Positions 1,331 to 56,416 of a DNA stretch of 64,000 nt are shown one piece after another. The notes beneath the pieces are model-generated. The model ran no database searches, was not told where the DNA came from, and saw only the letters and a program-made list of their open reading frames with translations. Every line of letters begins with the position of its first letter. Within the stretch, counting starts at the first letter, position 1. Position numbers and translations under genes: made by a program. The DNA is from Lingula anatina (taxonomy: Eukaryota > Animalia > Brachiopoda): positions 558,001 to 622,000 of the forward strand of contig CM120649.1 in assembly GCA_051362555.1 (NCBI GenBank). Reading direction: 5' to 3'.

Positions 1331-1462
<132 letters not shown>

Positions 1463-5534: not shown

Positions 5535-5592
<58 letters not shown>

Positions 5593-10358: not shown

Positions 10359-10662
10359 TGATCGCATTCACAACGAGTTGAGCCAGGCTTTACAAATCCC
10401 GGGAGCTAAATGTGGCGGTCGTACATGAAAGAAAAACCGGCTAATCTTTTAATAGTCTCTCCGCCTCTCACACGCCTCCCCACACGTCGTCCCTGCGGGG
10501 GGACAATCATTAAATCTCGGCTCCATTGGGACGACACATGGGGAGGCGTGTGAGAGGCGGAGAGACTATTAAAAGATTAGGCGGTTTTTCTTTCATGTAC
10601 GTTCGCCATATTTAGTCCCCAGGATTTGTAAAGTCAGGCTCAACTCGTTGTGAATGCGATCA
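10359..10662. mobile_element. Foldback/palindromic MITE with ~135-bp arms
   Basis: tgatcgcattcacaacgagttgagcc... pairs with ...ggctcaactcgttgtgaatgcgatca; the inner core (attaaatctcggctccatt, ggggaggcgtg) is shared with 13039-13280. Confidence 0.85.
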
Positions 10663-13038
10663 TTGACATCGACCAAAAAGAGATGAGAAGTATTATGGTG
10701 CTATGGTAGTTTTAATTGGAACCAATAAACAACAGACCTGTTGAGGCGAAACTACTGATACGAACCGAGTCCGATTTCAGAGAAAATTGATTTTCTTGTT
10801 ACTCATTCTTCATTTAACAAAACAATTAGTCATGCGACTCAAAAAATATTTTTGATTGCATATTTTTTTAAATAATCATTCAGTCAAATACTTTTGTTTG
10901 GTTCGTCAAAAGCCAAACGCTACCAAAGCAGATATGGGTGCAATGTCAATTTTCCTGCAATCGATGTCTTGATAGGTTTAGATGTTAGGTAGATATAATA
11001 AGCAGTGTAATGATCAATCGATTTGGCCAAAGTAATGACATGAAGCCAATTGTATTTTAAACATTCCAGTTCTTATCTGTGATGTACAAAAAACAAGCAT
11101 GTAAATAAATTATTAAAAAGACGATGGGTATTGGGTTCATACGTTTGCTTAAGGGGTATGTGAATGCACGCCCTGACAGTCAACTATGGTTAGCGGCGGC
11201 TAATTTGCAATAAACCCGTTCATCTTTATTCGTAGGTGGATCCTCCTTTCATGTAATAGGTGCACTGATGGTGATAAAACTCAATTAGATGGAAATTACA
11301 AGGGACAAACAACTATCTAACATAACCATTACAGGTGGAATTATGCCAATGAGGAAAATTATCGCCTACATTGTATAAGAGAATTTTACGTAATTTGCAA
11401 ACTCCCCTCCCCCTTCTCTTTCTGGCAGTCTGGAATTGAAATGTTTAAGTTGCGAAACAGAATACATCGTCATACAGATATTCAATGGGCAATGTGATTC
11501 TAGAGGGCTTTCTATTTGTATTGTTGCTTGTGTTTGCAGTTCATTTAGTTTGCTCATATCAACTAAAGACCAAACATATTTGACGGGGAAACCATACATA
11601 ACTACTTCATCAGTGCGTCCTCGATTCTAGTACTTACCGTGCATGCTCACGAATATTGCGTTTTCTTAAATTTATATAGGTGTCTTTTTCTCACGTTGCA
11701 GATGAAGCGTGCGAGATTTTATCTCAGTAACATCGGTGCCATATTTATAATTTTATACGCATGCACAACGAAATCAACTCTTTAAAGGTTAACGTTGAAC
11801 CGGCTCATAAGATACAAACCCGATACTTTTTGATTATAGAGCTCAAGTGGAACTTTTCAATGAGAAAAGGACAAAAATATAACAGTTTGGAATGTCCGTC
11901 TTACTTGATCGGTTTGAAACGTCAGGATTAACAGACCATAAATTTGAAAACACGTTTTGTTTTTAAAGTGTTTATGGTTACCACAGTATTTCACTTTAAT
12001 GTGACCTTTTGAGAGATGGAAGGCAAAATATTTCAAGAGGATTTGCTCTTTAAAAGGACAAAAAGGAAGGTTTTGACTTTGAAAGTTGGACGGAATACAA
12101 AATGAATGGAAGGTCGAACGTTTTAGAATGCAAATGATTTTTAAATGGCTTCAGAAACTATTTTCTCACTTTAGATTTTTTAAAATATACAATGAATGTA
12201 TCGCTTTGGCGAGTTTCAAAATATGACCATATAATTTTCAAAACGCTTGAACAAAATTCCATATTCATAATGAAAATTATATTATAATACAAAAATTCCA
12301 CTGTATTTCCTTGGCAATAAAATTTTTAAAAAATGGAATATACGGCGCAATGTAACAAAAAAAAAAAAAAAAAAAAAAGGCAAGAACAGAACAAACAACA
12401 ACTGTAAAATGGAAAACTCATTTTGACACCTATTGTTTGCTTTTTTTCATAAAACCAATTCGGTATTTAAGCTCCTGTTAATATGTACATTCTGTTGCAA
12501 GTGTCTGCAAGTCTTCAAGAACGAATGCTATGTAATTACCTTCAACGCAAGTATCAATCATGGGTTACCCCGCAAGATTTATACCCTCTGATTTCTCCTG
12601 GTTTGATAGCCAAAACAACATGGGCTTCCACCTGTTTCCAAATGTACCATCCACCATCTGTCTGCGAACTTTTTCCGCCAAGCAAACATCTGGAGTAAGC
12701 ATTAAAATTCATTCATAAAACCAGACACAGGAGTGGACGACAAGAAAGAACATGTGGTTGAAATCACAAGAGCGAAATTTTATTTGACAAAATTAGGCCT
12801 GTTTCAAAGCCAGCAAATCTACATTTGAGGCATTGAATACGCACATGTACTTCGTTGCCCGTTCGAACATAGAAAAAGAACATATTTACACATGTTGTTA
12901 ATGAGAAATGATGACATTTAATAAGTACAGAAAACTACACGGAATCAGTACCACAATAAATTCGTGTCCTTCCAAAAGGTACACAGGTATTTCATACTGA
13001 CCACCTCGATGGATGTGATCTTACTACATATCACAGTG

Positions 13039-13280
13039 ACCATTCAGAATAGAAGATCCGAGTATCAACTGGCCCAAGGCTCAAATATGGCGAACCCTAC
13101 ATGAAAGGAAGACCGCTTAATCCTGTAATGGTCTCTCCTTCTCTCACACACTTCCCCTCGCACCGTAATTAAATCTCGGCTCCATTCGACCAGACGCGTG
13201 GGGAGGCGTGAGAGAGGCGGAAAGACCGCCATATTTGAGCCTTGAACCTGCTGATACTCGGATCTTCTATTTTGAATGGC
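13039..13280. mobile_element. Palindromic MITE related to 10359-10662
   Basis: TIRs ccattcagaatagaagatccgagtatca / tgatactcggatcttctattttgaatgg plus a shared internal core; accounts for ORFs 13065..13337 and 13169..13414. Confidence 0.8.
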
Positions 13281-16085: not shown

Positions 16086-19000
16086 TTATACTTCTTGGCC
16101 ATTGGATCTCCTTTTACGGAACAAAAAGGCAAGGACCATTGCTGCAAGGAATCAGAATGTTGTTCAGTCAAGTATATTTTTATTGCCTGACTGAAGCAAG
16201 ACACACTATTCGTTGTGCCTGCCCCCTCCCCTATCTTCGCAATCTTCTAGAGTCTGAAAATGCCAAGCGCTATGGCATACCCGACTGCAATAACGTGGTA
16301 TGAGATCGCCATTACAAGACTTTCATTTGGCATTAATGCAGACTATTGTGTCTGGTCATATCTGCCTTTCGATAATGAGCGAAATCAAGAGTGTTACAGG
16401 ACAATACGGAGCAAGTGTTAATATTTTTGACGTCAAGATACATCTCCTTTACTGAGTTTTAGTATTAGTTATAAATCAGTTCATCATCTATATTTTTTTC
16501 ATTTGCTCATGCACCAATCACAAGTTGCACTGATGACATTAGAATGGATTTGTGTCGTTGTACATGTATTCTCCATAAAATTTATTGCAAAGATTCTTCG
16601 TCGCATGAAATTTCAGATATGTACAGTACCTGAATATCTGCGCCAAAGAACTGACACTGGACAATGCCACGTTAGACTAAGATATCACTTAAGTTCCAAT
16701 AACATGAGCGCTATTCAAAGATCAAATACTCATATTCAATAACAATAAATTGAAATAAAGGCCAAATGAACCTACAATTAGTGACTTTCCAAGTAAAATA
16801 AATTATACAACAATAACAGCACAGCGCGATACACATATAATCTCACTTCGATACTATTAATCAAGGTTCGGTAGTTAAAACACAATGATTTCGCCTTGAT
16901 ATGCGTTTTGCAAGGATGGCATCGGTAAGATGTTTTTTTTTATCTGTGGCGAAAAGCAATGAACTTCACGGCTGGGAACGGGCGTCATTATGCAGCATCA
17001 AAGGCCGAACATTTTCCAAATCCTCGCGTAAGACGCGATTCATTAACTAATCACTACCCGCCAATTTGCGCTTCCTGTTATAAAAACAAATTGTGTAAAT
17101 TATTAAGGCCGGCATTTCTGCCAATTTTCTGTCAATTTTCCCAGGGTAAATCACAAAAAAATATTGTTGACATTATGCCCCTAAGTATATAGCAGCACGC
17201 TTGAAAATAATAAGCTTTATTGTCCAGAAAGCGACGTAACGAAGCTACTGCCCATAACAGAGAGCTTTCTTACACCCCATTTCCATTGATTAGATCGACC
17301 TACTTTAGATCGACCTAACTCCCTGGGGGTTCACGCTAAATAGCTGTCAGCCGGGCGGACACGAAAGTTAATTACCCTCTTACAGCTTGTAGTAGGCGGG
17401 ACGGACATTTAAGTCGGATCATCTGACAGTAATCTAGTGAGACTCTCCGCGGGGATAGATCGATCTAAAATCTATGGGAATAGAGCCTAAAAGCTGCATG
17501 TGTTCCTTTTATTAGCAATGGCAGGTCCTGGGGGGGGGGGGGGGGGGGGGGGGCTCAGAGGGTCACCGCGAGAGGGTGAAATAATAAATAAACTTAAAAG
17601 GTTTACAACTGTTCATTTTGGCCAAAAAACGACAATTTTCCCATACTTACCAATGGTTAATGATTCCATTTTCACATTCAAAGTTAGTCCCTGTTTTTTT
17701 ATGTATAAAGTTAAAAAGTTTTTCTTTTTCAATAATCTATTAAGAGATTATTACAGAGTTTAGCCATCATGTGGTCCGCTGACAAGCACAATTTTCAAAA
17801 TAATGGCTATAACTGCCGTTTTTGTGGAAACATAGGATATATTATATTTCTGTAAGTTGTTAACAATGTATTGATTGTGAAATACAGATCTCATAGGAAG
17901 AAATGTTATCCCTTTAATACCCTGGTTAGCATATGAGCGTCATTTAACCAGAGCCTAAGCTTGTGCAAGAGAGTAAACCTCTCTGTGTGTAGTTGCACGT
18001 TGGGAGCTGCCAAACTGAGCAGTTATAACCTGTATCGCTTTAGTGTATCAATGTGAAAGAATCTAAGAGTACTGGGCTCCTATGGGCTCCTAACACAGGC
18101 CTACCCAACTACCAGACTCGGCACCTAAGGATCCTGAATTAACCGGTATATCGGACCACACTACCCGTTTTCAAGGTGTGTGTCAGATCGTATTTCGGAG
18201 TATCATACCCAGAACAAATTTTGTAGGACGACTGCGAGCTCATCCACGCTCGACTGAACAACCTGAAACAGTACTCTTACTTTAGAGTACTCTATTTCAT
18301 TGTCTCTATGGGGGTATATGGGGACTTTACGACATTCGGTTTGAATGTTTTAACCACTTTTGATAGGGCTATTTTGCATTGTATTAGATTAATGTGGCAG
18401 TCTAAGGTTCATCTAGGTGGCTTTCAAATTTATGCACCCGGTTTTAAAATCATATAGCGATTAAATACGACAATCATTTACTATCCAATCAAGGTGACAG
18501 CCGAGCGTGGGCTCATCCTGTCGGTGTTCTGACTGATACTCCGAAATGCGATCTGACACACACCTTGAAAACGGGTAGTGTGGTCCAATATACCGGTTAA
18601 TTCAGGATCCTTAGGTGCCGAGTCTGGTAGTTGGTTAGGCCTGTAACAGGATCGGTCCATCTCCAGGGGGTTTCTCGCTAAATCGCCTCCAGCTTAAGCG
18701 GCTTAGATGTCTGCCACGCCTACTGAAGCTCCTATTAAAAGATAGTTAATTACCCCCTAGCTTCAGTATGCGTGTCAGACATCTAAGTTGATTGCAAATG
18801 AACGAGAATCCCCTTGGAAATAGTTCGATCCAAAGATAGTACGATAGGTTCTGGGAATGGTCCCTAAATAGAAAACCCATCCAGTACTTGCCCAGAAACG
18901 TGCAGCCTGCCACGGTTCCATACAGAGTGTACCACGGTGTATTGACGAAGATTTCTGCAGCAAGTGTGGCAGCAAAAGGGTCGTTTAAAACCTAGAAAAA

Positions 19001-22000: not shown

Positions 22001-25000
22001 TGAGCCGCACCATATGGCGCCGTTCGCCCTCTAAAATACCAAAAAGTTTCCCCATGCCAATGGGTGGGTGAGGTGGGTGGGGTGGGGGCGTCAGCTTCGC
22101 ATTTGCGGACCACCGCTTCAAATAATCTTGGATCTACACCTGACTATGGTGATACGAAAGGTATCAGGTTTTAATAGTTATAAATATACAACTTTTGCAG
22201 CTGTTTGTTGTGTTGTGCACAGAAGAGAGCGCAATGGTTATTTTCAACAGACATCCAAAGTGTATAAGTTCTTTGCTCAGTAACATTATGTGTGAGATAA
22301 TACACTGTCACCCGAACGATATATGCCATAACACCTCGAGCGTCAGTGAGAGGTGTTCGTGGCATATATCGCGAGAGGGTGACAGTGTATTATTTGATTT
22401 AAATACCGAGAAAAAATACAGTCATTTCATCCTAAAACACCCCTAAAACCGAATAAAGTGACCCTATATCACGCTCTAAAGATGTTATACGGAATAAACT
22501 CGTCCACGTGCGCTGGTCACGTCCCGCCAAATTCTTACGTAATATCTGGCCAATTTTGGTCAATTTTTGCTAAATACTTGTCGTGAAAAGTATTTAATCA
22601 ACCGTCGACACTGACTATGCGCGTCTCAGTTGAGCCACACCTATCTGGGACTGCTGCGGAAAAAAGATCCCAAGGCAAAATCTCTACTTTTTAGTGACAT
22701 TTCTGATAAACAAGGATCGTCGGACCGGAATAAAGTCAAACTAATTTTTCACAAGTGCAAAGGATAAAGAAATTTACTTTTTGGTGATATTTCTGACAAC
22801 GAGGCAGTTTCGGAAGATAGTCAAAGTCAGACGGATGTTTATTACAAGTTCACGGAAGTTATAATTCTAGTTTTTATTGTTATTTCTGACGACGAGGCGG
22901 TTATGGAAAATAGTCAAATCGAACGGATGTTTATTTCAAGGCCACAGGAGTAATAATTCTACGTTTTGGTGACATTTTTTACTACGAGGCGGTTTCGGAA
23001 TATACATGTGCTGGTTTTCAGAGCATTCACGATGTAATTACAAGTTCAAAGGGGAATATATTTGATTTTTACCGATGTATCTGATAAAGAGGAAGAATGA
23101 ACAGCTTAAAAACAAAAGGTAAATAACACAACCCTCGTTAAAAAGTGTGGCGTAAATGTAAACTTATTCCAGGGGGTGGAAACGCGCTACTCATATGATT
23201 ATGACGAGCCTAACCGTCAGTACCGGATATAAGTTTGTGTCCTTGAGGTGTAATTAGGCTTGGTCTTTGCGGCACGCATGAACAGTAGTCGATCTACCAC
23301 GCCTGGGTCTTTTGTTATTGACAACTGTTCACTCGTCAACGAGGTGCTTGTTCAAGACTACCGACTGATATCTACTAGTATTACAAGTGGCTTCATTAGT
23401 AATGTTCCCACAATACATGGTTTTCTGTCTGTGCGTGCATACCCTGAATTTGGTTAGCCTCACTGACAAGAACAATGGACGTTTCTCACCCCTCTCTAGG
23501 ATTACCCCTGCTTATTCCCGTTTTCAATCCATACCCATATGATATGACTTAGTGTAATAAAATTTTAATTAATAATTGTTAAACGTGAAAAGTTTATGCT
23601 ACTTTTTAAAAGTGTGAGAGATTTTAAATTTGTCTACTGGTAGGTATATAACGCAAGCAACGTCACTATTCTCTTGATTCCAAGAAGGTCACATGATCAC
23701 TCTGTCTTTGGCTTTCAGCATTTAAGAGACCTCGACTGATTTAACCAAGATGTAGTCGTGAAATTCTAGAGTTTTCCGAGAGACACTACGCAGAAATGTC
23801 GAGTGAAGCGAGATATTTTTGGGTAGCGGCTCGAGGTTGCCCTCGATCTTCACTGAAGCTTGGCTAAATGGACAGGCCTCAGTGATCATCATATCGCCAC
23901 GGTCACATAACATCCCTAGGTATGTATTATCAATAAACGTTGATTTACTAGTAACTTGCCATCATTTAATCTATTATAAACTATTTGAATAATACACTGT
24001 ACTCAAACAACTACATAAAAACCAATCTGTGAAAAGTATGAACCTTTCCACTCACTAGAATGTAGACTACTACATATCAATTTAACACTTCATTAAACAA
24101 ATTGATAAAGCGTATATGAATTTGTCTCATTTCACGCTCACTTACGGTTCTCAATCTGATCTATAACATAATATTTTTTCTTTTAATGAAAAATGGTCTT
24201 AATCTGTTCTAGGAAATTCTGAAGGACTTCCCAAAAACAGTTCTCGAACTGTTACATTCATTACAGAACAACATTTAGAACCATAAAAAATACACCAAAT
24301 GTTCTAGAAGAGATTGAGAACCGTAAGTGAACGTGAAATGAAACAAATTTTCGCAGGGTCCGTTATTTTCATGCCTACCCGGAATGAGAACTGATCCACG
24401 ATAATGCCCCAGAAAATCCGGCCTCCCGCGTTGAAGAGCGCCGCCAAGGATCCACAGAGCGCCAGAAACTGGTCGTCTTTTATGAACGTTTGCCCATAGA
24501 CCTGCCGGGTATGTGACATAAAGTGTGAGGCGAAAAATTCACTACGTTTTCAAATATGTTCATATCAAAGAAAATATTTGTCGGAGAAAAACATTCAAAT
24601 TCTACGCACCACTGCATCAATATTGGTAAAAAAACGTACCAGAAAACCTCCGATTAGTCACCTGTCATTGTTCAAAACAAATCGGTAAAGAATGGGTCAA
24701 AAGGGAATCTCCAGTCCCCCCCCTCTTCTTTTTTTTTTATCTTTTTTAGCTGATTGGCTAGCACGCCCCACATTTTAAATGTGCTTCCTAAGCGGGTGTT
24801 CTATACATGTAAGAAAACCGATGTTTTACCTTGTAGAGACTAGCGTGCAAGGTGCACTCTCCGTTCAAGAAGTACATAAACCAAAGCACCCAGAACCAAC
24901 GGTCACAGAGCAGGGTCGACACTTTGAAGGTCTCTGCGCTCTCTTCTAGGAAGCTAAGGTTAGTGCCGCTGCTAAAATACACAAAATAAATATGGGTAAA

Positions 25001-33174: not shown

Positions 33175-36100
33175 AGAGAGAGACCATGTGCGTCCGCCAA
33201 AGTGAGCATTCACATACAGAAGAGCCGAGGTTTAGCAAGGCCGAGGCCTAAACATGGCTGACCTACATAAAAGGAAGACCGCGTAATCATTTGATGGTCT
33301 CTCAATGTATGTCAGAGAATTTTAATAATTAGACCGAGTATCGATCTGACATGACCTTGTGTGAATGCAACTAATATAGCAGTGCATTCTTTATGCTTGA
33401 ACACCCACAAACACATCCACACCCACTTAAAGGGATAATAACTCTTCGTATGAGATCTATATTTCACAATAAAAACATTGTGAATAACTCATAGAAATAT
33501 AATATATTCTGTTTTACCACAAAAACGGCAGTTATAACTATTATTCTGATATCTGAGCTTGTCTTTAGACCAGGTGACCTCCATTGATGGCTATACTCTG
33601 TTATAATCTCTTAAGAGATTTTAACAAAACAACCAAACTTTTTAGAAAAAAAACAGGGACTAACTTTAAATGTAAAAATGGATTCATTAACCATTGGTAA
33701 GTATGGGAAAAGTATGTTGTTTACTCCAGGAAAATTCATTTTTGGCCGAAACGAAGAGTTATTATCACTTTAAAGAAAAAGAAAAGATATTGTGTGAAGA
33801 TAGAGTACAGATACCTGATTCTTACCTTATACGAACCGGCAGCTTCCAGTAAAACTTGACTATTGAAGAAGAACACCAGCCACATGATATAAAATGATTT
33901 GGTTTTCATCATTGCTATTGGTGTAAGCGACCTTTCCTCACCTGGGACCTTGGAGCCGCTTCTAATTAACAGAGAATAAAATTTTAAAAGAACGTTTGGC
34001 TCCGACACGCGCAAAAGTCATGAAGACCAAATTACCATATCAAGTAAAATAGAAGAACTATAAGTGTAGCAGACAAAGAGCGTTGAGAAACAATTATTTC
34101 ATAAGTGATGAACGTTAATTGTACGAGAGTGCGGTTTTTCTTCTTTTTTAATCGATTTCAGATCTTTTTAAAATTCGCATCTAAATTTCGTTAAAAATTG
34201 GCAGATTTTTAAAAACGGGGAGGCAACTGGAGCTGAGAAGAAAAATTTGCCTCATTTCTAGAGGTTTCTTCCTTTTCTTCATCTCCAATGACGTGATACA
34301 CTGCTGCCACTCTTTTAGGCTGTACTAGAATATTGAATGATTTTAATTAATTTGGTAGGCATGTCTGTTGACAACAAAGCAGTTAAGGGAGGCTAAATGT
34401 TAAGGACTGGTGCTATCAGCTGCTTCCCCTCCATCTGGATCCTACTGAGTATAGTCAGGCAACTTACGCTGTTATTCTGGTCGTACGGTGGCCGGGCAAC
34501 AGACTGTCTGACTCATTAGAACTGTTACTGTTGCCTATCACTATAGCGTACAAGTCTCCACTGTCCTGAAATAAGAACGAATTCGTGTAACAAGATCGGG
34601 GCAACTCGGCAGGTTTCGCACCTCAGCGGAATGACACGAAGTTGACCGAATAAGTACGAAGGATCACAATTATGCCTTATAAGAACTTCAAACTAGGCAC
34701 TTAATTTTAAACTTAATATAGGCGTGATTGTTATAAATAATAATAAGAAATAATTCCGAACACGTCGCAGTTATAAAACAGTAGAATATTACATTTCACT
34801 ACTACTGATTTATCTTAAAGGTACTTTTTAAAGTTTACACCAATTTTACGAGCTCTTTTGCAAAGCAATTAAGCCTCAGCAGGTCACGCCAGGTCACGCC
34901 AAGACAAGCCACTCTAGTATGTCACAAAAAGTCACGATAGTCACGAAAGTACGTACCAAGTCCGCTTGTCCCCTTTCAAACATGAGGAGAACTCCTATGA
35001 GCTGTACGACGGCGTACGATACGCCAAGGATAAGAAATACACTAGGGACCTTGTTCAAGATGACAAGTTGATTGAAGTACCTAGGAAGGAAAATGATTAG
35101 TTGTCCAGAATACTTATCTCATTAAATTACTAAATTATTAAATATTGTTAAATAGACTAAAGTCACTTTGAAATTTTAAGAGAATGGAATTCAAGAGGGT
35201 GGAACACCGTCCATTTTTTGGAACAACATACAAACTTTTTTTATTGGGGTCTATGCTGTGGAACAATAAATTTGACAGTGACTGATGATGAAATAATGAT
35301 AAAGGACTTGCTTTAAAAAAGCAATACACAGTTCTTTAGAATACAAGTCAGTAGTGGAACGAAGAAATAGGGAAAAAATATTCTGTTACGTATCCTCAAA
35401 CCAATATAAACCAAATTTTCAGTAATTCATTAATTTTTTCGTGTTAATAAAGTACATCTAGAATACACCATTTATCAGTTAAATTATTTATTAGATTCTT
35501 ATATAATACTTTTTTACTATATCATTCACCAAAATTAGTTCTGAACGAGAGTTCGGTCGGTAGTGGTCCAAATGAGACCAATTTTTCTATGAAACACTTA
35601 TTTTTAACAAATAGAAACCCACCTTTCTGTATGGCAAGGTTTGGAGCTGTTGGCAATAGGGAAGGGACAGATGATATCAGACGGTTGTTTGTTGTCGGGG
35701 TTCATATAAAGCGTCTGTACCCAGGCGAAGAGAAACGGACCACAAGCAAAGCCGGCAAGAACCAGCCCAACGGCCAAACCTTTCTTTTCAGGAAACCACT
35801 GAAAGATATGTTGTTCAAAATGATACCAGTAAATGATGATCTGAGAAAATAAAGTTACAAAACTTTTGGAACCATAACACCCTGTATGTACAAATATGTG
35901 CATTGTTTGTCTAATGTTTACTTGCATAATCTGTACATCCGTGGAATTACTGAAGTAATTAAAATCGTTGTGGAATCAGTGACTGAGACAATTCACTGGC
36001 TCCTATGTAATACGTCCGTAAGTTGCCCGGCCATGAGGAAGAAGTCAACGCATGGGCACTAGTGCAATATCCCCTGCGAAAATGTGTCTCATTTAACGCT

Positions 36101-37598
36101 CACTTACGGTTCCCAATCTGTCCTAGAACATAAATTTTTTCTCTTTTCATGAAAAAATGTTCTTAATCTGTTCTAGGACATTCTGAAGGACTTCCCCAAA
36201 ACAGTTCTCGAATTGTTACATTCATCACAGAACAACATTAGAACTGTAAAAAAAAAAATTAAATGTTCTAGAATAGATTGAGAACCGTAAGTGAACGTTA
36301 AATGAGACAAATTTCCGCAGGGGATGTGTGACGTCCAACTCGGGATCATTATTCCTTTCGTTATGACGACATACTCTCATCGCTAACGTCATGGGTACAG
36401 TGTAAGCCAAACCGCCGCCTATCCCCACCAAGACTCCGTAGGTAGCTACTGTCGCCAAAAAGGAATGTTGGATGGCCTCAAAGGTCAGAAGAACTCCAAG
36501 ACTGAAGTATGAGAATTAGACAAATTGTGACTTATTGGATACTGATAGCAAATATTACTTTACTGGCATAAAGGGAACATGAGAAATTCACCCAGAGCTT
36601 CAGAGAACTTTAATCAAACCTCTACACTACATCATACTCTTGACTGATCTCCAAGTTAAAGAAAAGATATCAGGAAATACCCAATGATTCCAAAATAACA
36701 TGGGAATTTGACATGGATTCAGCATGAAGTTTCTTGTTTATCGATTTATCTTATTATAAGGTATCTACCACAAGAACTCCATTAAGTTGAAGTTTGTGAG
36801 GTTTGTTTTACGATTTTTTTCGTTCAAAGTGATAGACCGCGTTCAGATCGAGACGTCGTACTGAGTCGGTCTTCAATTCTCTGTAAGTGCAAGCAGTGGA
36901 ATCAGGTCACCGTCTGATATTAAGCCGAGCGCACAGGAAAGTTAATTTCCCCCTTGTTGCTCGAGGAACTGATTCTACTGATTGCGCCTAGGAAGAATCC
37001 CTCACACGGTTGGACCGACCCAGGTAGTACGATGCGTCTATCTGAATGCGTCCTTTAAGATGGGCATTTGAATATCAAACTAAGCATTCACGCCATATAA
37101 AATACCTCATAACCCAGCTTCCTATGAGTGTAGTTATTCTGGCACCAACAGTCCTCTCCAGGGCCCCGCCTGCAAACATGGCGAGCCCGGAAAATGTGTA
37201 TTCAGCGGCAAATATCCAGTTTGTGCTGGCGTACGTCACAGGAAACGAGGCACGGTCGAATTCCCTCATATAAGACGTCATGTAGGTCGTTATGTTACCT
37301 GTGAAATAGCCATATGCGTACTATTGCTAAAGAGAAAGCTCTGTAGTTGGTTTGGCAGCATTATTTCGATATATATAGGAAAATAGGGGCAATATATGGA
37401 CCTGTTTTGAAGATATTTAATGAGAGTGGTCGAACTGACAGATTGATAACAGATAATCAGGCAGCCATGCATGTAAATGGACGGACAGTCTGTACAGGCA
37501 GACAGACAGACAGACAGACAGGCAGACAGACAGGCAGAGCGTGGCAGAGAGACAGACAGAATGACTTCTGACAGACGTCATAGAGACAAACATAACTG

Positions 37599-42447: not shown

Positions 42448-45400
42448 ACTAGTAGCAGAAAATCACTCAGAGAGCATTGCACCTCTACCAAAGAAGCTTA
42501 ATCCCTGATAAATTAATGAATTAACAGATCCTGATTAAGATCAAACCGATTCTAAGTTAGCCCATTTATAAACTATCCATGTTTTACAAAATCTGTCTAT
42601 AACTGCTTGAGTTAGGGTTTTACCTAGCAAACAAAGGCAAAATCATAACCTCCTTGGCATAAGAAGTAAATATAGGCCCCATTCAGAATAGGGGACTAAC
42701 TAGTCCAAGGGTCAAATATGGCAACCCACTACAAAGCTTGCCATCTAACCCGCTAATAGATACTGAATAGATTTCCAATGGGGAAGTATTCCAGTGGGTC
42801 AGCCATATTTGACACTTGGATTAGTTAGTCCCCTATTCTAAATGTGGCCATAGAAATAAGAAGTTCAGTAATGATGTTAAATGCAGAAAGTTGAGATAAG
42901 AGACCATGCAGTCAAATGGGTCTATTTAAAATCATAATAAAGAACACATTAACTACTATAATAATGATATCAAGCAGTACCTACCTGTATTGCATTGTCT
43001 TCTCTACTGAACAATAGAAAAGTACCAAAAGTCAACAGAATAGCGTAGGTGATGCCAAGACACTGGAAGATACTCGGAACTCTTTCTAACACCTTGTCAT
43101 CCACAAAATATCTGAAACGGAGAGCAATATGTTGATGGTGGTAAAAAAAGATGTTTTTAAGAGAATAAACATGTTTTCTATCTATAGGTATGACATTGCA
43201 ATGCCTCTTCAAATCATCCAATATTCTGGACCTGTATGGGCATGGGTAAAGAAACAGATCTTCCTAATTTACCTGTAAATCAAAACATTTAACATCTATC
43301 TTCACTTGCTTACACTGATATCCAATTGATATCCATTAAGATTATCCATATTTGAACCTACCACTCTGGATATCCAGCAGGATCATTCTTATGTGAACCT
43401 ACCTATCTGGATATGTACCAGGATCATACTTATCTCAACCTACTTGTCTGGATATCCAACAGGATCATCAGAGTCTCTAATAGCCACCGGAGCGATGTTG
43501 TTTGGGTTTGCATACACAGTCAATAAACTTTGGAAGACAGATTTCCCCAAACCAGTGGCGACAATGATAAAAACTATCACGGTGCTCTTCCTGCCTGGAA
43601 ACCACTGAAAAAAAAAAACATTTTAAATTGCAAGAAATTATAAGCATGTACTGGTATATATATCACTTATCCTGAAGAATGATATATTTCAAAATGGCTG
43701 GTCTGTAGAATGAGAACATTTTAGAATACACACTGCCTAAAATATCAATAACTGATTCAGAAATATCTAGAATATCTATGTATAACCACTAGAAGTTAAC
43801 TCTTAAAAACAAAAAACAAAAAACAAGAAAGTAAAACAAGAAAGGTAAACTTAAAATCAAATAATTCCAAGAACACAAAAGTGACCAATTTTGTCTTACA
43901 CACTGGAAGAACAAGAATTTTGCCATGGGTGCATGGAAGGATAAAATAATTGTATCTTTTACTTGCTTTGTAAATCAAATATGAAATAGTAGTAGTAATA
44001 GTAGTGGTGGTGGTATTTTTTTTCTTTTTTTTTTTTTTTTGGGGGGGGGGAGGGGGGGTAAGAACGGGGTACCTCAGACTTTAAGGGAAGGGCAAATGTC
44101 TATTGTGCCCTGTCCCCTGCACCTGATATTTCACACTTACTTTCATAGCACAGACTATAGGAGGCAGATAACAGATACCAATGCCAAACCCATACACATA
44201 TATCATACTTACTTTCATAGCACAGACTATAGGAGGCAGATAACAGATACCAATGCCAAACCCATACACATATATCATACTTTCATAGCACAGACTATAG
44301 GAGGCAGATAACAGATACCAATGCCAAACCCATACACATATATCATACTTACTTTCATAGCACAGACTATAGGAGGCAGATAACAGATACCAATACCAAA
44401 CCCATACACATATATCATACTTACTTTCATAGCACAGACTATAGGAGGCAGATAACAGATACCAATACCAAACCCATACACATATATCATACTTACTTTC
44501 ATAGCACAGACTATAGGAGGCAGATAACAGATACCAATGCCAAACCCATACACCAAACCAAATGACAGCAAAGTGTACAGGTACCCGTGGTCAACATCTT
44601 GGATAGTGAAGTAGGACATGGACACTCCTAGACTGGAAATATATAACTCATGACCTGAAATACTTTAATTAATGCATTAGTACAAGGAACCTATATTTGT
44701 TTTAACAACATTTGTTTTAATTTATTAACTTCTTTTTTCATACAAAAGCAACTGCACCCTAGCTCTTCCTCTGATATTATTACATTTTATTTGCAGATGG
44801 GCACAGTGGCAATTAAGGAATGAAACTGAAATTTTTAAATAAGAAATTTAAAAGAATCAAGAATATTCACATGAACAATTGATATTGGCTATATAAATAA
44901 CCTCAATTCATTCAATGTAGTATGCTAACATGCAAAAAAGATAATAAATAAAGAAATTGTACAGTTTCATTGAATGGGGATTTAAAGAAAAAAAAGATGC
45001 CAGTAAATTTACTCACCATAACAAGAAACCCCCGAGAAAAGTTGTTATTCTTGGTCCAAACCTGTACTCCAGCTTTGCACCTATAAACATGGCGACACCC
45101 ATGCTGACCCACTGGAGGCCATATATCCACGAGGCTTTCTCGTAGGTGAAACAGTCAAAATCATCAAAATCTTCTCCTGATTCAAGGCATATTTTGTTTA
45201 AGCTTCTCATATATGAGGTCATGTAGGTTGTAACATTTCCTAAATAAAGAGAGAAAGAAAAAGAAAGAAGCTGTGAAAAGAAAACTCAAAAACCACAGAA
45301 CTTAATGCAAATTTGAAAACATCACCGAAATTAAAAAAAAATACTGTGATTGCCATTACTGTGCCAATTATTATGTCAGAAAAGTAAAAGTATAACTTAA

Positions 45401-48400
45401 ACAAACTCTCATTATTTTAAAACTTGACTGATTGCTGATTGACAAAATTTACTTTTATCAGTAATATTATCATTTCCAGGATAAAAAAGCCAGTCTATCA
45501 TTACATTAGGCAATGTATAAAGATAACTTTCCGTCCTTTAAAGCAGGTCACAAAATACCATCTTCAGGGGGCCATAGCAATAGTCCGAAGGTTTAATATT
45601 CCGAAGGTTTATTGGTCTGAATGTCCACTATAGAACCTTCGGTTCAAAAACCCTTGATTAAAAAACTGATGAAAATGCTACAATTTTTTGGACCAAAAAA
45701 CCTTTGGACTATCGAGACTCCCCCTCTCTTGATCACTCAGAGTAGAACCTCTGCCAAGGCAGCCCAAGTCTCATAATTAATCAAATCAACTGATAAATTA
45801 ATATATCATTACCAAAATTAAATCAATTCTAGAAAAGCCCATTTCTGAAAGTTTCACTCATCCATTAACTTTTTTTCTGAAATGTTCTATCAAACAAACA
45901 GACAAAACCAAGCCCGCAGAATATAGTTAAAATTTTTGGCCGAGGATGGAATTAAATGTCTCACCAAACAAAAACACTGCACCAACCACCAAGTGCACCA
46001 ACATTCCCCCTATTACTGCCACTATTCCCTTTGACTGGTGGACAACTATCCCATCATCATCCTCCATGTCATATGAACTGTAGGTGGCACTGCTGCCAAG
46101 GGAAAACTCATTTGATTGGATAGAATCTCTCCGCTCATCACAGCGGGGGGTTCTGTTGGAGTTTGTGGGTGTGTCTGATCCCATCTCTCCTACCAGTGAC
46201 ATTTCTCGCTCTTTAATATCGTTTTCTGAACCTGATTGTGAAATAAATTGAATATATCAACAGATCAAATCTATTAAATTACTTTCCCCAATGACTTAAT
46301 TGCAGTGACAGAACCCAGCGGGCACTCAACGTTGATTCAACATTGAGGATAGGTTGAGATGATGTTGAGCCATCAATATTGATAGATCAACAAGATCTCA
46401 ACATTGAATCAACCTTTTCTTGTCAACCAATTGTCAATGTTGATAAATCAGCAGGGTCTCAACATTGATTTAACCTTTCTTTGTCAATCAATTTTCAATG
46501 TTGATAGATCAACAGGATTTCAACATTGAATCAACCTTTTCTTGTCAACCAATTGTCAATGTTGATAGATCAACAGGGTCTCAACATTGATTTTACCTTT
46601 CTTTGTCAATCAGTTTTCAATGTTGATAGATCAACAGGATTTCAACATTGAATCAACCTGTGTTTGTAAACCCTTTGTCAATGTTGACATATCAACTGGA
46701 TCTCAACATTGGGCCAACCTTAACTTTATAACCTTAATCATAACCTTGATAATAGTTTTAAATGATTATCTCACTAGAGAGATATGCATAGGGGTAATTA
46801 CCCCTCATAAAACGCTTGTTTTACCCCTTTTTCATTAAAATTAATTTTGTGAAAAAAGCGGTCGTCAGTTTTTTTAAACTTTCCACAGGTTATCCTTAAG
46901 AAAAAGAAAAAAAACATAGGGTCACCAGCCTTACTTTATGGCATATTGACAAAATTTTACTCAAGGTTGAAGAAAAAGCTTGAAAAAGCCAAAAATGCCT
47001 GTTTTTCTGGAAATTTAAGTTAGCTGTGAGAAAAAAATTAGACTGGTGACCCTTTGTTTTTGTATTCTTAAAATTATCTTAACTACCTGATGTGACGTTA
47101 TAATTATTTTAGTAAAGCTAATTTGTTGTTTAATTTTTATGAGTAATTACCGTATGTGCCTGCATACTTGTATAATGTAAATGAAGTGCGGGACTGTTAT
47201 TAAGTGCGAGACTCCGGATAACATGAACTGATGCAACACGTGAGTGTGGACAGTGTGTAACACTTTTACAGTACAAAAACTGTACTTTATTAACAGTACT
47301 TTGTGAGGCCACACTATCAGGAGGATCGTTCAACAGATAAGGACATGGAAAACGGTGACATTTCGTCTTCAAAACTCCACACTATCAGGAGGAACGTTTA
47401 ACAGAAAAGGACTCGTAAAACTGTGACATTGCGTCTTCAAAACTTAACTGTCTACGAATCTGTCAGAATTGAACTGTATTTGACAAATGTTAAAGTTTAT
47501 GCAACATGATAGTATTACATGTAGTTAGTTTATGTAGTGTATGTTCATTGTTTGTCATATATTATATTCATAGTTAAGTTAGTTGTTGTTTGTGTTTTTT
47601 TTATGTTCGGGCTGTTTTGGTCCGTAACACTGAGCATCAAACTGGAAAGTTTAAAAAGAATCTGACGACCCATAGGTGGATACAGGGGCCGGTCCCGGGG
47701 TCTGGACCCCCCCCTTTCCTTTTCTTCCGAAATTACCTTTTTTTGTAGGTAATTTTCCTAATTTCCCCCCCCTCATTTTTCAGATCTGAGTCTTTTTATT
47801 TCAAGAAATGCTTGATATCTTGGAGAACACCTTCAGCCATCAGGCAAATTTCAATCAAATATCCTGATAGCCTAATTGATATATCAACGTTAATTCAATT
47901 TTCAAATTCAACTTAATTTCAACATTGATTCAACATTGATACCTCAAGGTTGTTTTAACCTTGATGGTTCAAGGTTGATTCAACCTTAATGGTTCAACGT
48001 TGAGTCAACTTTCATAGTCAACGTCATATCAACATAGTTTCAACATTGACCGTCAACGTTGATTCAACATTGATACCTCAAGGTTGATTCAACCTTGATG
48101 GTTCAACGTTGAGTCAACTTTCATAGTCAACGTCATATCAACATAGTTTCAACATTGACCGTCAACGTTGATTCAACATTGATACCTCAAGGTTGATTCA
48201 ACCTTGATGGTTCAACGTTGAGTCAACTTTCATAGTCAACGTCATATCAACATAGTTTCAACGTTGACCGTCAACGTTGATTCAACATTGATACCTCAAG
48301 GTTGATTCAACCTTGATGGTTCAACGTTGAGTCAACTTTCATAGTCAACGTCATATCAACATAGTTTCAACGTTGACCGTCAACGTTGATTCAACATTGA

Positions 48401-49147
48401 TACCTCAAGGTTAATTCAACCTTGATGGTTCAACGTTGAGTCAACTTTCATAGTCAACGTCATATCAACATAGTTTCAACGTTGACCGTCAACGTTGATT
48501 CAACATTGATACCTCAAGGTTGATTCAACCTTGATGGTTCAACGTTGAGTCAACTTTCATAGTCAACGTCATATCAACATAGTTTCAACATTGACCGTCA
48601 ACATTGATTCAACATTGATACCTCAAGGTTGATTCAACCTTGATGGTTCAACGTTGAGTCAACTTTCATAGTCAACGTCATATCAACATAGTTTCAACGT
48701 TGACCGTCAACGTTGATTTAACATTGATATGTCAAGGTTGATTCAACCTTGATGGTTCAACGTTGAGTCAACTTTCATAGTCAACGTCATATCAACATAG
48801 TTTCAACGTTGACCATCAACGTTGATTCAACATTGATTCAATTTTGATTTGCCCGCTGGGAAGATACAGCAATATAATGGGGGATGGGGCAGAAAAGAAA
48901 AGAAAAAATCAAGATAATAACAATTATCATATTCATAAAATAAATAAAATGAAAATATATATATATATAAATATTGTTTACAAAATACATTTTTGCCACT
49001 CCAGTAAAACATTATGACACCATTATCCATTTGATTATGTGGAGTACATGATCTACTGCTGTTTAGAGCAAGAAAGTAGCAGAAAAAGTCCTTACTTGTA
49101 GTACATGTGTAGGCCTCTGACAACTCACTGTCCCAGTCCTCCTCCAT
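39791..49147 (-). CDS. MFS transporter, oxalate:formate antiporter-like (paralog 3); 12 coding exons with acidic N-terminal extension
   Basis: First exon 49096-49147 (MEEDWDSELSEAYTCTT, phase 1) splices in frame to 45965-46231 (SSENDIKEREMSLVG...KGIVAVIGGMLVHLVVG). Then GNVTTYMTSYMR, YGFGIGICYLPP, WFPGRKSTVIV, AAGKVVLG, NYGMLFTSQ, exon 40122-40221 (VAGFSCIG), and last exon 39791-39846 MMLAFVFNGKTWDGKTV*. Confidence 0.9.
42675..42849. mobile_element. Short palindromic MITE (Harbinger-like termini)
   Basis: ggccccattcagaataggggactaactagtccaag...cttggattagttagtcccctattctaaatgtggcc. Confidence 0.8.
44135..44552 (-). repeat. Tandem array (72-bp unit, 6 copies including the native exon end) of an MFS-3 exon 3' end plus donor site
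   Basis: Exon-end copies start at 44141, 44213, 44281, 44353, 44425 and 44497; the unit encodes VSMIYVYGFGIGICYLPPIVCAMK; one unit is 68 bp. Confidence 0.97.
46314..48860. mobile_element. Non-autonomous CMC/EnSpm-type DNA transposon (2547 bp) with subterminal tandem arrays
   Basis: TIRs CCCAGCGGGCA / TGCCCGCTGGG, AA on both flanks. Left array of ~61-bp units (122-bp period), right array of ~8 x 109-bp units, both rich in TCAACGTTGA-type palindromes. No transposase ORF. Confidence 0.9.
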
Positions 49148-51639: not shown

Positions 51640-54600
51640 TCATCTCATAAAAACCGATGTATTTCGGAAACTGGAATTATCACTGAAATGAGGAAATTAA
51701 AAAAGTTTTAGGTAAAACCATGCTGAAGCTTCCACTGCATTCTTGGCCAATTGTAAAATTGTATACCTAGATGAAGTTACATGACTGTATACCTAGTAAG
51801 ATGAAGAATAGAAATGTGTTAAAATGAGAGAGAAAGAGAGAAAGAAAGAGATGGGGTGGGCAGGAAAACTTCAAAAGAAATAAAGCAGACAAATGCTGAA
51901 TAACTGCTAGGTTATTGCACATTTTATGTTGGGTAAAATAAATGCCTAAAGCTACTTTTACCCTGTTACTATAAAATACCCTTCATGTAACATATCAACT
52001 TTAAAAGCAACTTACATCAGAGAGAAAAGCTCCCATTAACTACTAAGGAAAAGAATGTTTCCTTCTTTTTTTATTAAAAAAATTTAATGTTTTTAATGGG
52101 ATACTTGTTTTGTAAAACTGTTGATGAAAATACACACCTTAAACTCTCACTGTGTTTCTTATATTCCATTATTGTATTTGGCGGTAGATTTAGTATCCTT
52201 TTCAGCGTGTCCCTAATTCTGGATGTCGTCTGCTGATCATGTGCTGTTCTATTCCACAATGATAAAATATCCTCCTGTAAATAAACAAGTATGGCTTAAA
52301 AACAGAATCAATTTAATGGCTGGAGGGAATACTGCAAAATTACATTTTTACCTTTCTAAGGCTTAACAATATCAGGGGCGGATTTAGGCCGCCTTCTGGG
52401 TTTTCCGGAATATGGTCAGATTTTCAAGTTTACATTGACAGGTATCCAATTTTTCCTGTTGGAAAACGGTCAAAATTGGAGGATGAATCAACAAAGATAA
52501 TTTGGAAGACTGTCAGCAAATAGCTCTGGATCTGCCCCTGAATATTAAGTGTATAAACAATACCACAAGCTGACAACTTTTTTATTTTCAAGATTAAACA
52601 ACACATGGTGAATAAACAATGTCTGGTTGGTTGGCCTTGCTTGGGTTGGACTCCCTGTAACTCACTGACCAAATTACATATTCACATTTAGGACTCCCTG
52701 TACGCCAAATCCTGTAGAAACCCCCTGACCTAGTCCTAGTATATTACCTGATATCTTATTGAGATCGCAGCTCCACATATTTCCTCTCCCACCATAAACT
52801 GTTCACCTATCATAGCAAATACCAGGTTCTCCCAGCACCTGTAGAAACCCCTGACCTAGTCCTAGTATATTACCTGATATCTTATTGAGATAACAGCTCC
52901 ACATATTTCCTCTCCCACCATAAACTGTTCTCCTATCATAGCAAATACAAGGTTCTCCCAGCACCTCGACGCTAACCCCTTCTTAAGACGAACAATCCAC
53001 TTGCCGCCATTTTTATTTGCATCATCCTGAAAAGAAAATTTAAATTACATTATAACAAATGTTCCTTTTGAAACATAATATAATAAATCTTTATTTATAG
53101 TGTATATGATTTTCTGTTATATGCTTTTTCAATTCCAATTTTTGTCTTCGTTCCTCCCTTTTTCTTCTTTCCTATTCTGTGTTTCTTTCTTTTTCGTATC
53201 CTACAATGTTTTCCTTACCTATTTTTCTATACACCATCTTTAATATTCTGTCTGCACAGGGACTAGTATGTAGATATATTTCTGGAGGTCTCCACTCATT
53301 TTCCTTACCTCCCACAAGGGTCTGACTCCCTCCTTAAACAGATGATAGTCACTGTGTCCTTACCTCCCACATGGGTCTGACTCCCTCCTTAAACAGATGA
53401 TAGTCACTGTGTCCTTACCTCCCACATGGGTCTGACTCCCTCCTTAAACAGATGGTAGTCACTGTGTCCTTACCTCCCACATGGGTCTGACTCCTTCTTT
53501 AAACAGATGGTAGTCACTGTGTCCTTACCTCCCACATTGGTCTGACTCCTTCTTTAAACAGATGGTAGTCACTGTGTCCTTACCTCCCACATTGGTCTGA
53601 CTCCTTCTTTAAACAGATGGTAGTCACTGTGTCCTTACCTCCCACATTGGTCTGACTCCTTCTTTAAACAGATGATAGTCACTGTGTCCTGACAAGTCAC
53701 CAGGTCTGGCAATGTGACTGTAGTTGGCAAAAAACTGTTCCACCTATAATGAAATTAAATTAAAATCTAACAAGATTGGTCCATCTACGAGGGGTTTCTC
53801 GCTAAATTGCTTATAGCATAAGTGGCTTAGATGTCTGGCACGCCCACTGAAGCTGTTAAATGATAATTAATTACATACTAGCAGCTTCAGTAGGTAGACA
53901 TCTAAGCTGCTGAACTTGATTACAATTTAGCGAGAATCCCCTCAGAGGTAGATCGATTCAGTTAGTATGATAGGGTCTGGTTATGGTCCCTGAGACTGAT
54001 ATTCAGGTAGTGATACAAGCAAATCATGTGATGCACAGGCTCTAGGTACACGCTGCACTTGGGAGCTGTGCCAAGTATGGGAGCTCTCTGTTTCAGTGGT
54101 TCTCTTATATCAAAGACTGGGTATAAAACTGTCCTCTTCTCTAAACACAACACTTCAGATCCAAGAATGAAGTACCGTAATATTTCTTCAGTGACAGGTT
54201 AATATGGAAATAGTTTTTCCCTCCAAATTTTACCTCCAAAAGAAAAATTACTTAATTTTTATAACATGACACAGCTGATGAAATTCTTCTCTGACTTAAG
54301 ACCCAATAATCAATACAAAAAGGCCTACTAGTATATACTCACAGATGCAAAAGTTCCTATATTTTTCAAATTCTGGTCATAGCTGGAAGAAGATGTCTGT
54401 TTTCCTGGTGTGCGTCGTGAGAACCAAAAACAATAGTTGAACTGGAGTGGATGTTCACCTTTTCCTGGTTTTACCACAGGCTGGAAGGAGACAGTCAGAT
54501 ATTAAATGAAAACATTTAATGAAGCCTAGGATATACTGAAAGAACTTACAACAACTACACTTTGCCTGGTATTCACCTTTTCATAGTGAAAACACAGGCT

Positions 54601-54877: not shown

Positions 54878-56416
54878 ACCAATACTAACTGACATCCTGC
54901 AAGACAGATAGACTCTAAATAAAGTTTAAATTGAACACTTATATATAACTATAATTTAATGGAGTAGATGTCCAAGTCAGAAATACCCTTGACTCTTTGT
55001 TTTTCTGTTCTCCATTTTCATCTTCTCCACTGTCTTCTTCATTTTTGAGCCTAAGGAGAAAATAAAATTAAAAATATGAGTGTAAGGCCTACCTTATAAA
55101 GCTTGTGCAAGACATGTAAGAGTAAATGTAACGTCTATGTATCCTAGCTAAATATACATGTATGCTTTGGAAATAGGGAAGTTTAATAGGGTGTTAAAGG
55201 GGAGGGTCTAGCAAGCCATTGTATACAGTACATACATATTGGAAAGGAGGGTGAGGGGGTGAGGAGAGTTGGCTTTGTGGATCAGGAGTCAGCTCCATGA
55301 AAAAGAAAACTGCATAACCTTGAAGACAAAATATGAATTCCTCCATTTCAGTTCAGGATAAGTGTACTGTAGTCCAAACACTTGAACTTTTAACTTTATA
55401 CACTAATACCAGTAAATATTTTAAAACTATTGACCATTCGTAAACATAAGCCACTTCTTTCTATTTTTAGCACAGACATAACATACAACTTTTATAGCCC
55501 ACTATTTGTAATTACTGTAGTGCCAGGGGCAGGTAGAACCGGCCGGGTAGCTCAGTAGGTAAGAGCACTCGCCCTGTAAGCGAGGGGTCCCGGGTTCGAT
55601 TCCTGGCCTGGCTGGTGATTTTTCTGCACTCACCCCAAATCGCTACAATGGTGGCAGCGGTGTTGCGAGATAGGGCTCGCGTCTTTCGGCATTTGGGGGG
55701 GAGGAGTGTAGTGCCAGGGGCAGGTAGAACCGGCCGGGTAGCTCAGTAGGTAAGAGCACTCGCCCTGTAAGCGAGGGGTCCCGGGTTCGATTCCTGGCCT
55801 GGCTGGTGATTTTTCTGCACTCACCCCAAATCGCTACATTACTATTCAATAAAATCACACTCAAAGTTGACTAACATTTAACGTTTGTCTTTAAGTTTAG
55901 ATCAGCTTTAGTGGCACAAACAGTCCGTATTTTACTTTTGAATACAAATACCATACAGCTGGGAAAGGGAGGTCTTTGAAAAATTTTTGACCCAAATATC
56001 TGAACAAAATCTTGGACTTAATCACTGGCATGACGTGGATCAAAATATCTACTGCATGAGCCACGTTCGAAGTTGAAGGAGTTTCTTTTTATAATCCGGT
56101 GCAATATAGACAGGGCAAGACAATATAGTACCTAGCTTTCAAAGTATTATTATCCATGTAGCACCCTATATAGGACCTATTTGTAAAGACAGCCTTTTTC
56201 TGATTCAAAAGTTACACGCTTTATCTTGGTGCACTCTAGTCTTGGTACATCGAATGAAATGTTTTGATCCTGGCGTCAAATGCCCGAGAAAATACGAGAT
56301 CTACCAGGTGAAAAATACGCTCAACTCCCTCAAAAACCACTGCAATCCACGCCGATTGTGTATTCGTGAAAACACACAACCCCATTTTATACTTACGCAT
56401 CAAATTTGTTGTTCAT
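51640..56416 (-). CDS. EIF4E2: Eukaryotic translation initiation factor 4E type 2 (4EHP); 7 coding exons
   Basis: Exons 56397-56416 (MNNKFDA), ~54987-55050, ~54343-54480 (EHPLQFNYCFWFSRRTPG..YDQNLK..GTFAS), 53639-53743 (HSDYHLFKEGVRPMWE), 52874-53026 (DDANKNGGKWIVRLKKGLASRCWENL..EEICGAVISIR), ~52139-52275 (EDILSLWN..RIRDTLKRILNLPPNTIMEYK), 51640-51682 (DNSSFRNT). These are class II eIF4E signatures. Confidence 0.96.
52711..52965 (-). repeat. 126-bp tandem duplication of the EIF4E2 exon-5 3' end plus intron start
   Basis: Two copies of RCWENLVFAMIGEQFMVGEEICGA(V/A)ISIRYQ|gtaatatactaggactaggtcagggg; exon ends at 52874 and 52748. Confidence 0.95.
53303..53690 (-). repeat. Tandem array (55-bp unit, 7 copies) of the EIF4E2 exon-4 3' end plus GTAAG donor
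   Basis: ccttacctcccaca... at 53303, 53358, 53413, 53468, 53523, 53578 and 53633. Confidence 0.97.
53773..53992. mobile_element. MITE, same family as 18650-18865
   Basis: Shared internal blocks, and right end ggtctggttatggtccc. Confidence 0.7.
55541..55613 (+). tRNA. tRNA-Thr(UGU)-like sequence inside the 5' LTR (probably not a functional tRNA gene)
   Basis: Cloverleaf: GGCCGGG/CCTGGCT acceptor, GCTC/GAGC D stem, CTCGC-CC TGT AA-GCGAG anticodon arm, CCGGG-TTCGATT-CCTGG T arm. A and B boxes intact, TTTTT a few nt downstream, C instead of U33. Confidence 0.7.
55732..55804 (+). tRNA. tRNA-Thr(UGU)-like sequence inside the 3' LTR
   Basis: Identical to 55541-55613. Confidence 0.7.

What the first reader, a model, noticed from the sequence alone, without database searches (positions are those of the whole stretch)
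55512..55842. Intact 323-bp LTR retroelement whose LTRs are built around a tRNA gene (Pol III-driven TRIM)
Seen: TTAC-[132-bp LTR TG..CA]-59 bp-[identical LTR]-TTAC in EIF4E2 intron 1. The 59-bp interior holds only a PBS (TGGTGGCAGCGGTG), a small hairpin (GCGAG-ataggg-CTCGC) and a PPT. Each LTR contains a full tRNA-Thr(UGU)-like cloverleaf with A/B boxes followed by T5. Known: the PBS is complementary to the 3' end of eukaryotic tRNA-Leu (CACCGCTGCCA-CCA), and plant Cassandra TRIMs carry 5S rRNA in their LTRs. From memory, molluscan TRIMs with tRNA-containing LTRs have been described as Ajax, so this may be a member rather than a new class. Inference: a near-minimal retroelement that uses a captured tRNA as an internal Pol III promoter and is mobilised in trans by a tRNA-Leu-primed, probably Gypsy-type, partner. 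Zero LTR divergence implies very recent insertion. The T5 in the 5' LTR must be read through to make a full-length RNA.
Basis: partly seen in the sequence, partly recalled or inferred. Interest (0 to 1): 0.85.

Follow-up and report, generated by a model that had tools for sequence, protein, structure and literature searches.

The report
Recent copy of known Helenus-1_LAn retroelement
This is a real 323-base gene-less jumping element whose two identical ends each carry a tRNA look-alike that likely serves as its promoter; it matches a family already published in 2024 (Helenus-1_LAn of the brachiopod Lingula), and other individuals lack it at this spot, so it is an ordinary, likely recent copy of a known element.

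Summary
In detail: TTAC, a 132-bp LTR, 59 bp, an identical LTR, TTAC; each LTR has a tRNA cloverleaf followed by T5. It lies antisense in the first coding intron of an eIF4E2 (4EHP) gene. It is a copy of Helenus-1_LAn (Kojima 2024, PMC10886601): same lengths (132/59/323, 4-bp TSD), identical interior, LTR 129 of 132 identical, compared by eye. Contigs of 4 of 4 DNA runs laid (3 studies) hold the empty site with a single TTAC, and depth over the element is tens to over a hundred times the flanks. So the TSD is real, the insertion is polymorphic and the family is repeated. Pol III transcription, T5 read-through and the Gypsy helper remain inferred; I obtained no RNA data. The scan has noted Helenus-type elements before in other genomes (17 findings). 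Small extras absent from the paper's main text are the empty-site alleles and a weakly supported U5:PPT stem. Already known; low interest.

The parts
55512..55515 (.). 5' target-site duplication TTAC
   Evidence: empty alleles carry one TTAC
55516..55647 (+). 5' LTR, 132 bp, TGTAG...CTACA
   Evidence: 129 of 132 identical to Helenus-1_LAn-LTR by eye
55541..55614 (+). tRNA-like cloverleaf in 5' LTR (UGU anticodon, C at position 33); box A 55548-55559, box B 55593-55603
55619..55623 (+). T5 run in 5' LTR, predicted leaky Pol III terminator
   Evidence: sequence; leakiness inferred from PMC5725217
55624..55647 (+). inferred U5; 55624-55640 can pair with 55691-55711
   Evidence: folding; weak significance
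55649..55662 (+). [quoted passage not shown]
   Evidence: compared by eye with the tRNA end printed in Fig. S2 of PMC10886601
55664..55681 (+). small internal hairpin (5 Watson-Crick pairs plus a U-G, 6-nt loop)
55695..55706 (+). polypurine tract, 12 nt, abutting the 3' LTR
   Evidence: sequence
55707..55838 (+). 3' LTR, identical to the 5' LTR; tRNA-like unit 55732-55805, T5 55810-55814
55839..55842 (.). 3' target-site duplication TTAC
55051..56396 (-). host intron: first coding intron of an eIF4E2 (4EHP) gene; the element is antisense to it, 465 bp from the acceptor
   Evidence: GT...AG ends and open frame across flanking exons 56397-56416 and 54987-55050; gene identity; no RNA confirmation

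Best explanation
It is an intact, polymorphic copy of the published non-autonomous LTR retrotransposon Helenus-1_LAn, which is likely transcribed by RNA polymerase III from the A/B boxes of the tRNA-like unit in its 5' LTR and likely copied and inserted by the proteins of an autonomous Gypsy element. Shown: structure, family identity, 4-bp TSD, empty-site alleles, many related copies in the species. Inferred: Pol III starts near 55541; most transcripts would stop at the first T5 as a tRNA-sized RNA of about 83 nt; a minority would read through and stop at the second T5, giving a 274-nt RNA whose repeat (R) is the whole tRNA-like unit, with U5 and U3 of only about 24 and 25 nt. Host tRNA-Leu would prime minus-strand synthesis at the PBS, the long R would allow strand transfer, the PPT would prime the plus strand, and a Gypsy integrase would act on the TG...CA ends and leave a 4-bp duplication. 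The tRNA-like unit is likely a promoter rather than a working tRNA.
For: Family: lengths 132/59/323 and TSD 4 equal Table S1; interior identical and LTR 129 of 132 identical to the published consensus, by eye. Insertion: joints that skip the element and keep one TTAC in 4 of 4 runs laid, 3 studies; one 2022-nt contig spans the empty site. Repeated family: summed contig depth 490-11,200 over the element against about 12-230 on the flanks, and loose ends with foreign flanks at the LTR termini (the tool warns this is no copy number). The three differences from consensus are the same in both LTRs, as expected when both derive from one RNA template. Promoter: intact boxes A and B. Helper: the same PBS occurs in Gypsy-57_CaAu and Gypsy-130_CGi (Fig. 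S2); the paper links animal Helenus with Gypsy by PBS and reports 4-bp TSDs for them. Leaky terminator: T5 stops human Pol III 74-95% of the time (PMC5725217 passages), which would give 5-19% full-length RNA.
Against: No RNA evidence was obtained, so transcription, polymerase and read-through are untested; the paper also says Pol III function is not validated for Helenus. The T5 figures come from human type 3 promoters, not from a tRNA-type promoter in this animal. No autonomous partner was seen: the PBS occurs once in the window and no genome is held. None of the contig pieces listed bridges a filled junction at this site with 31 letters on both sides (428 pieces were not shown), so the filled allele rests on the window itself. 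[quoted passage not shown] TSDs of other copies could not be read.
Confidence: 0.82

Rival explanations
1. Same element and family, but the RNA that transposes is made by Pol II (a cryptic start in the LTR or read-through from host DNA); the tRNA-like unit is kept as a folded packaging or strand-transfer signal, and Pol III only makes short dead-end RNAs that stop at T5.
For: T5 can terminate up to 95% of Pol III transcripts. The three LTR differences from consensus all face a G in the acceptor stem and keep pairing, which hints at selection on shape; the cloverleaf is complete.
Against: Only 25 bp lie upstream of the tRNA-like unit in the LTR, and no AATAAA is visible in the element. Across Helenus families the paper reports conservation centred on boxes A and B. 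C-to-T changes opposite G keep pairing by default, so three such changes are weak evidence.
Confidence: 0.12
2. The element also supplies a functional tRNA-Thr(UGU) to the host.
For: ARAGORN and Rfam accept it as a full tRNA; a bivalve family with the same anticodon loop, Helenus-4_PiIm, is listed as able to encode tRNA-Thr in Fig. S1.
Against: Position 33 is C where tRNAs nearly always have U (the rule is recalled). Helenus-1_LAn is not among the families shown in Fig. S1. [quoted passage not shown]
Confidence: 0.04
3. A chance local duplication of a tRNA gene, or an assembly artefact.
For: It is the only copy in the 64-kb window, and the filled allele is not bridged in the listed contig pieces.
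Against: It matches a published multi-copy family end to end; the empty alleles have exactly one TTAC where the window has two flanking the element, which a misjoin would not create.
Confidence: 0.01

Closest known systems
Helenus-1_LAn (Lingula anatina; Kojima 2024, PMC10886601, Data S1 and Table S1)
   Same: LTR 132 bp, interior 59 bp, total 323 bp, 4-bp TSD; interior identical; LTR 129 of 132 identical (by eye).
   Different: Three transitions in the 3' acceptor strand (window 55607, 55612, 55613 and the same places in the 3' LTR), all keeping base pairing. The paper gives a consensus only; the words polymorphi-, empty and allele do not occur in its main text, and Table S3 gives no copy number for Lingula.
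Helenus-2_LAn and Helenus-3_LAn (same paper)
   Same: Same species, same Leu-type PBS start, similar size (314 and 322 bp), T4-T5 after the tRNA-like unit.
   Different: Diverged LTRs; Helenus-2_LAn has another anticodon loop and lacks the same internal hairpin (by eye).
Ajax (nemertean TRIM, same paper)
   Same: TRIM with a small-RNA-derived putative Pol III promoter; reported tRNA-Leu primer.
   Different: Ajax has a partial 5S rRNA sequence, 5-bp TSDs and 421-434 bp; this element has a tRNA-like unit and a 4-bp TSD.
Cassandra (plant TRIM)
   Same: Pol III promoter inside the LTR; transcript starts in the 5' LTR and ends in the 3' LTR (as summarised in PMC10886601).
   Different: 5S-derived, 565-860 bp, R of only 18 nt; here the inferred R would be about 83 nt with the terminator downstream of the whole unit.

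Membership tests
Helenus (TRIMp3) | Two LTRs, under 1000 bp, no coding capacity | tested here: met
   323 bp, identical 132-bp LTRs, 59-bp interior
Helenus (TRIMp3) | tRNA-derived sequence with boxes A and B in each LTR | tested here: met
   box A has AGG where most families have YGG, as does the published Helenus-1_LAn consensus
Helenus (TRIMp3) | PBS and PPT at the ends of the interior | tested here: met
   14-nt match to tRNA-Leu(AAG) end of Fig. S2; 12-nt purine tract
Animal Helenus | 4-bp target-site duplication | tested here: met
   TTAC on both sides; single TTAC in empty alleles of 4 of 4 runs
Helenus-1_LAn | Sequence identity to the family consensus over full length | tested here: met
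   interior identical, LTR 129 of 132, compared by eye with Data S1; lengths equal Table S1
Helenus-1_LAn | Interspersed, multi-copy | tested here: met
   high summed contig depth and foreign flanks at LTR termini; no copy number or other TSDs obtained, no genome held
TRIMp3 (functional definition) | Transcribed by RNA polymerase III | not tested
   no RNA data obtained; unvalidated for Helenus in the paper
Animal Helenus | Mobilised by a Gypsy element | not testable with these tools
   no genome held; only the shared PBS with Gypsy families of other animals
Ajax | 5S rRNA-derived sequence in the LTR; 5-bp TSD | tested here: not met
   Rfam search of 55300-56100 lists only tRNA; TSD is 4 bp
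Cassandra | 5S rRNA-derived sequence in the LTR | tested here: not met

The most novel reading that the evidence does not exclude
The Lingula Helenus RNA folds its short U5 onto the PPT/U3 junction in a 16-pair clamp that encloses the whole interior and presents the PBS and hairpin as the packaging and priming signal, while a deliberately leaky T5 sets the ratio of tRNA-like by-product to genomic RNA. This family is still moving, so it would be a usable animal model to prove Pol III-driven LTR retrotransposition, which is unvalidated for any Helenus.
Probability: 0.2. Interest if true: 0.4.

Novelty: already known. Interest (0 to 1): 0.13.

Why it matters
Little as a discovery, since the class and the exact family were published in 2024. 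It has modest value as a specimen: an intact copy with empty-site alleles shows that Helenus-1_LAn moved recently, and one of the smallest known Helenus elements is a convenient reporter for the open question of whether Pol III drives these elements and how it passes the terminator in the 5' LTR. Copies will also be miscounted as tRNA-Thr genes by tRNA finders.

Tried and rejected
Ajax and Cassandra membership: rejected (no 5S sequence). Genome-wide search: no genome held. Other copies in the window: none beyond the element's own LTRs at E below 2; PBS motif found once. Search for a partner by the LTR-end/PBS junction in metagenome contigs: 1 match, a 21-nt hit in a microbial-mat contig with no further similarity, no tRNA and no LTR, read as chance. 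RNA: no RNA holder listed, which is no evidence either way; no RNA reads were obtained. Kissing loop between the anticodon loop and the internal hairpin loop (5 contiguous pairs): 129 of 3000 shuffles reach it, noticed after the fact, and Helenus-2_LAn does not keep it by eye; not accepted. Fold of the interior and of the U5-interior-U3 stretch: z +1.04 and -1.22, not better than shuffles. Earlier findings by sequence and by place: none. Later work on Helenus: the search Helenus + retrotransposon from 2023 found 5 papers, 4 listed; I read only passages of one further paper (PMC12859917, a one-sentence mention). Lingula anatina + TRIM + retrotransposon found 19 papers, 10 listed, seen as listing only.

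Full report
Observation. The element is 60% G+C against 35-37% in the flanking intron. ARAGORN finds 2 tRNAs in the window, both in these LTRs, called Thr(UGU); Rfam's tRNA model scores each 61.9 bits, and no other family is listed for 55300-56100. The cloverleaf has all four stems, box A at 55548-55559, box B at 55593-55603, C at position 33, and T5 four bases after the discriminator. The host gene runs on the minus strand: one exon matches human eIF4E type 2 far better than other eIF4Es (E 8e-28 against 1.6e-11), and 3 of 3 exons tested match Pfam IF4E. The element lies antisense in the intron 55051-56396, the first coding intron by sequence; an upstream non-coding exon is not excluded.

Identity. 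A paper search gave Kojima 2024, PMC10886601. I read parts 1-4 of 6 of the text (abstract to discussion), the conclusions, the figure and table section, and parts 1, 6, 7, 9, 10 and 11 of 11 of the supplement, plus term searches in it. It defines Helenus as TRIMs with tRNA-like LTRs (4-bp TSD in animals) and Ajax as nemertean TRIMs with 5S-like LTRs (5-bp TSD). Data S1 holds Helenus-1_LAn from Lingula anatina: by eye its interior is identical to the window's and its LTR differs at 3 of 132 positions (window 55607, 55612, 55613), all in the 3' acceptor strand and all facing a G, so pairing is kept. Table S1 lists LTR 132, interior 59, total 323, TSD 4. The element is therefore a copy of a named family, and the host is likely Lingula (inferred from this match). 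Figures of the paper are not held, only legends.

Insertion and copy status. Ten public runs hold part of the stretch, from 4 studies; I laid contigs of 4 of them, from 3 studies. All 4 contain the empty site. X1 and X2 show a joint skipping 327 bases (323 plus one TSD). X3 and X7 show the empty site plus a nearby 13-bp deletion, and X7 has a second empty haplotype; one X3 contig of 2022 nt spans the site. Each empty allele has one TTAC, which confirms the 4-bp TSD. Summed contig depth over the element is 490-11,200 against about 12-230 on the flanks (one bin next to the element reaches 430), and loose ends with foreign flanks sit at the LTR termini, so related copies exist elsewhere; the tool warns that these depths are no copy number, and I could not read other TSDs. 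Against: no listed piece bridges a filled junction here (428 pieces not shown), and in X1 the empty allele's depth (60.9) is close to the flank's (64-65), so the filled allele may be rare. Identical LTRs alone bound divergence only at 2.2%; polymorphism is the better sign of recency. No genome is held, so no partner or copy census was possible.

Mechanism. The PBS (55649-55662) matches 14 nt of the tRNA-Leu(AAG) 3' end printed in Fig. S2, where two Gypsy families of other animals share it; Lingula is not in that figure. The paper links animal Helenus to Gypsy helpers by PBS similarity and states that Pol III function is unvalidated for Helenus. My inferred model: Pol III starts near 55541, mostly stops at the first T5, and sometimes reads through to the second, giving a 274-nt RNA with the whole tRNA-like unit as R. 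Human Pol III stops at T5 in 74-95% of cases depending on promoter (PMC5725217, abstract and passages), which would give 5-19% full-length RNA; this carries figures across species and promoter type. I obtained no RNA data, so this step is open. The rival is Pol II transcription with the cloverleaf as a structural signal. A working tRNA is unlikely: C33 breaks the usual U33 rule (recalled), and the family is absent from Fig. S1, although a bivalve family with the same loop is present there.

RNA structure leads. In the folded 274-nt RNA, U5 (55624-55640) pairs with the PPT/U3 junction (55691-55711) in two 8-pair helices, with pair probabilities of 0.89-0.94 and 0.54-0.58. The duplex (-25.5 kcal/mol) is reached by 186, 72 and 78 of 5000 shuffles in three schemes, and beats U5's best pairing elsewhere in the RNA (-18.8). 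By eye Helenus-2_LAn and -3_LAn keep 12-15 pairs there, in one case in another register. This was noticed after the fact, pyrimidine-rich U5 and a purine tract pair partly by composition, and the enclosing 125-nt stretch folds no better than shuffles (z -1.22), so it is a lead only. A loop-loop match between the anticodon loop and the internal hairpin (129 of 3000 shuffles) is not kept in Helenus-2_LAn and I do not accept it. The paper's main text has no occurrence of hairpin, kissing, read-through, empty, allele or polymorphi-; 5 of 11 supplement parts were not read in full.

Verdict. Real, correctly described, and already known at family level. The scan has 17 earlier notes with these words in at least 8 other genomes, 8 shown, all filed as Helenus-type; I had reached the identification before seeing them. 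New here are only the empty-site alleles and a weak structural lead. Novelty: already known. Interest 0.13.

Noticed in passing
window 53302-53690 (-): A 55-bp unit repeated 7.1 times copies the 3' half of an eIF4E2 coding exon together with its GT donor, giving 7 in-register donor sites.
   Followed up: partly
window 52711-52966 (-): A 126-bp unit present twice copies the end of the next eIF4E2 exon and its donor.
   Followed up: partly
window 44126-44553 (-): A 72-bp unit repeated 6 times again looks like an exon end plus donor (5 GTAAG), in a gene whose reading frames look like a membrane transporter (not searched). Three exon-end-plus-donor tandem arrays in one window is a pattern worth a look.
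   Followed up: partly
window 55857-55869: Empty-site alleles in runs X3 and X7 carry a 13-bp deletion just beside the insertion site; run X7 differs from the window at many flank positions.
   Followed up: no
window 55573-55577 and 55670-55674: The anticodon loop is complementary over 5 bases to the internal hairpin loop, and both hairpins use the same two stem arms in swapped order; weak (129 of 3000 shuffles).
   Followed up: yes
window 47884-48837 and 46373-46711: Satellites of 109 bp (8.7 copies, 96% alike) and 61 bp (5.6 copies); the first is internally palindromic.
   Followed up: no
window 10356-10665, 36069-36325, 42675-42849, 53789-53943: Short fold-back elements, some with related copies elsewhere in the window (24119-24358, 18644-18865, 13083-13226), likely MITEs.
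   Followed up: no
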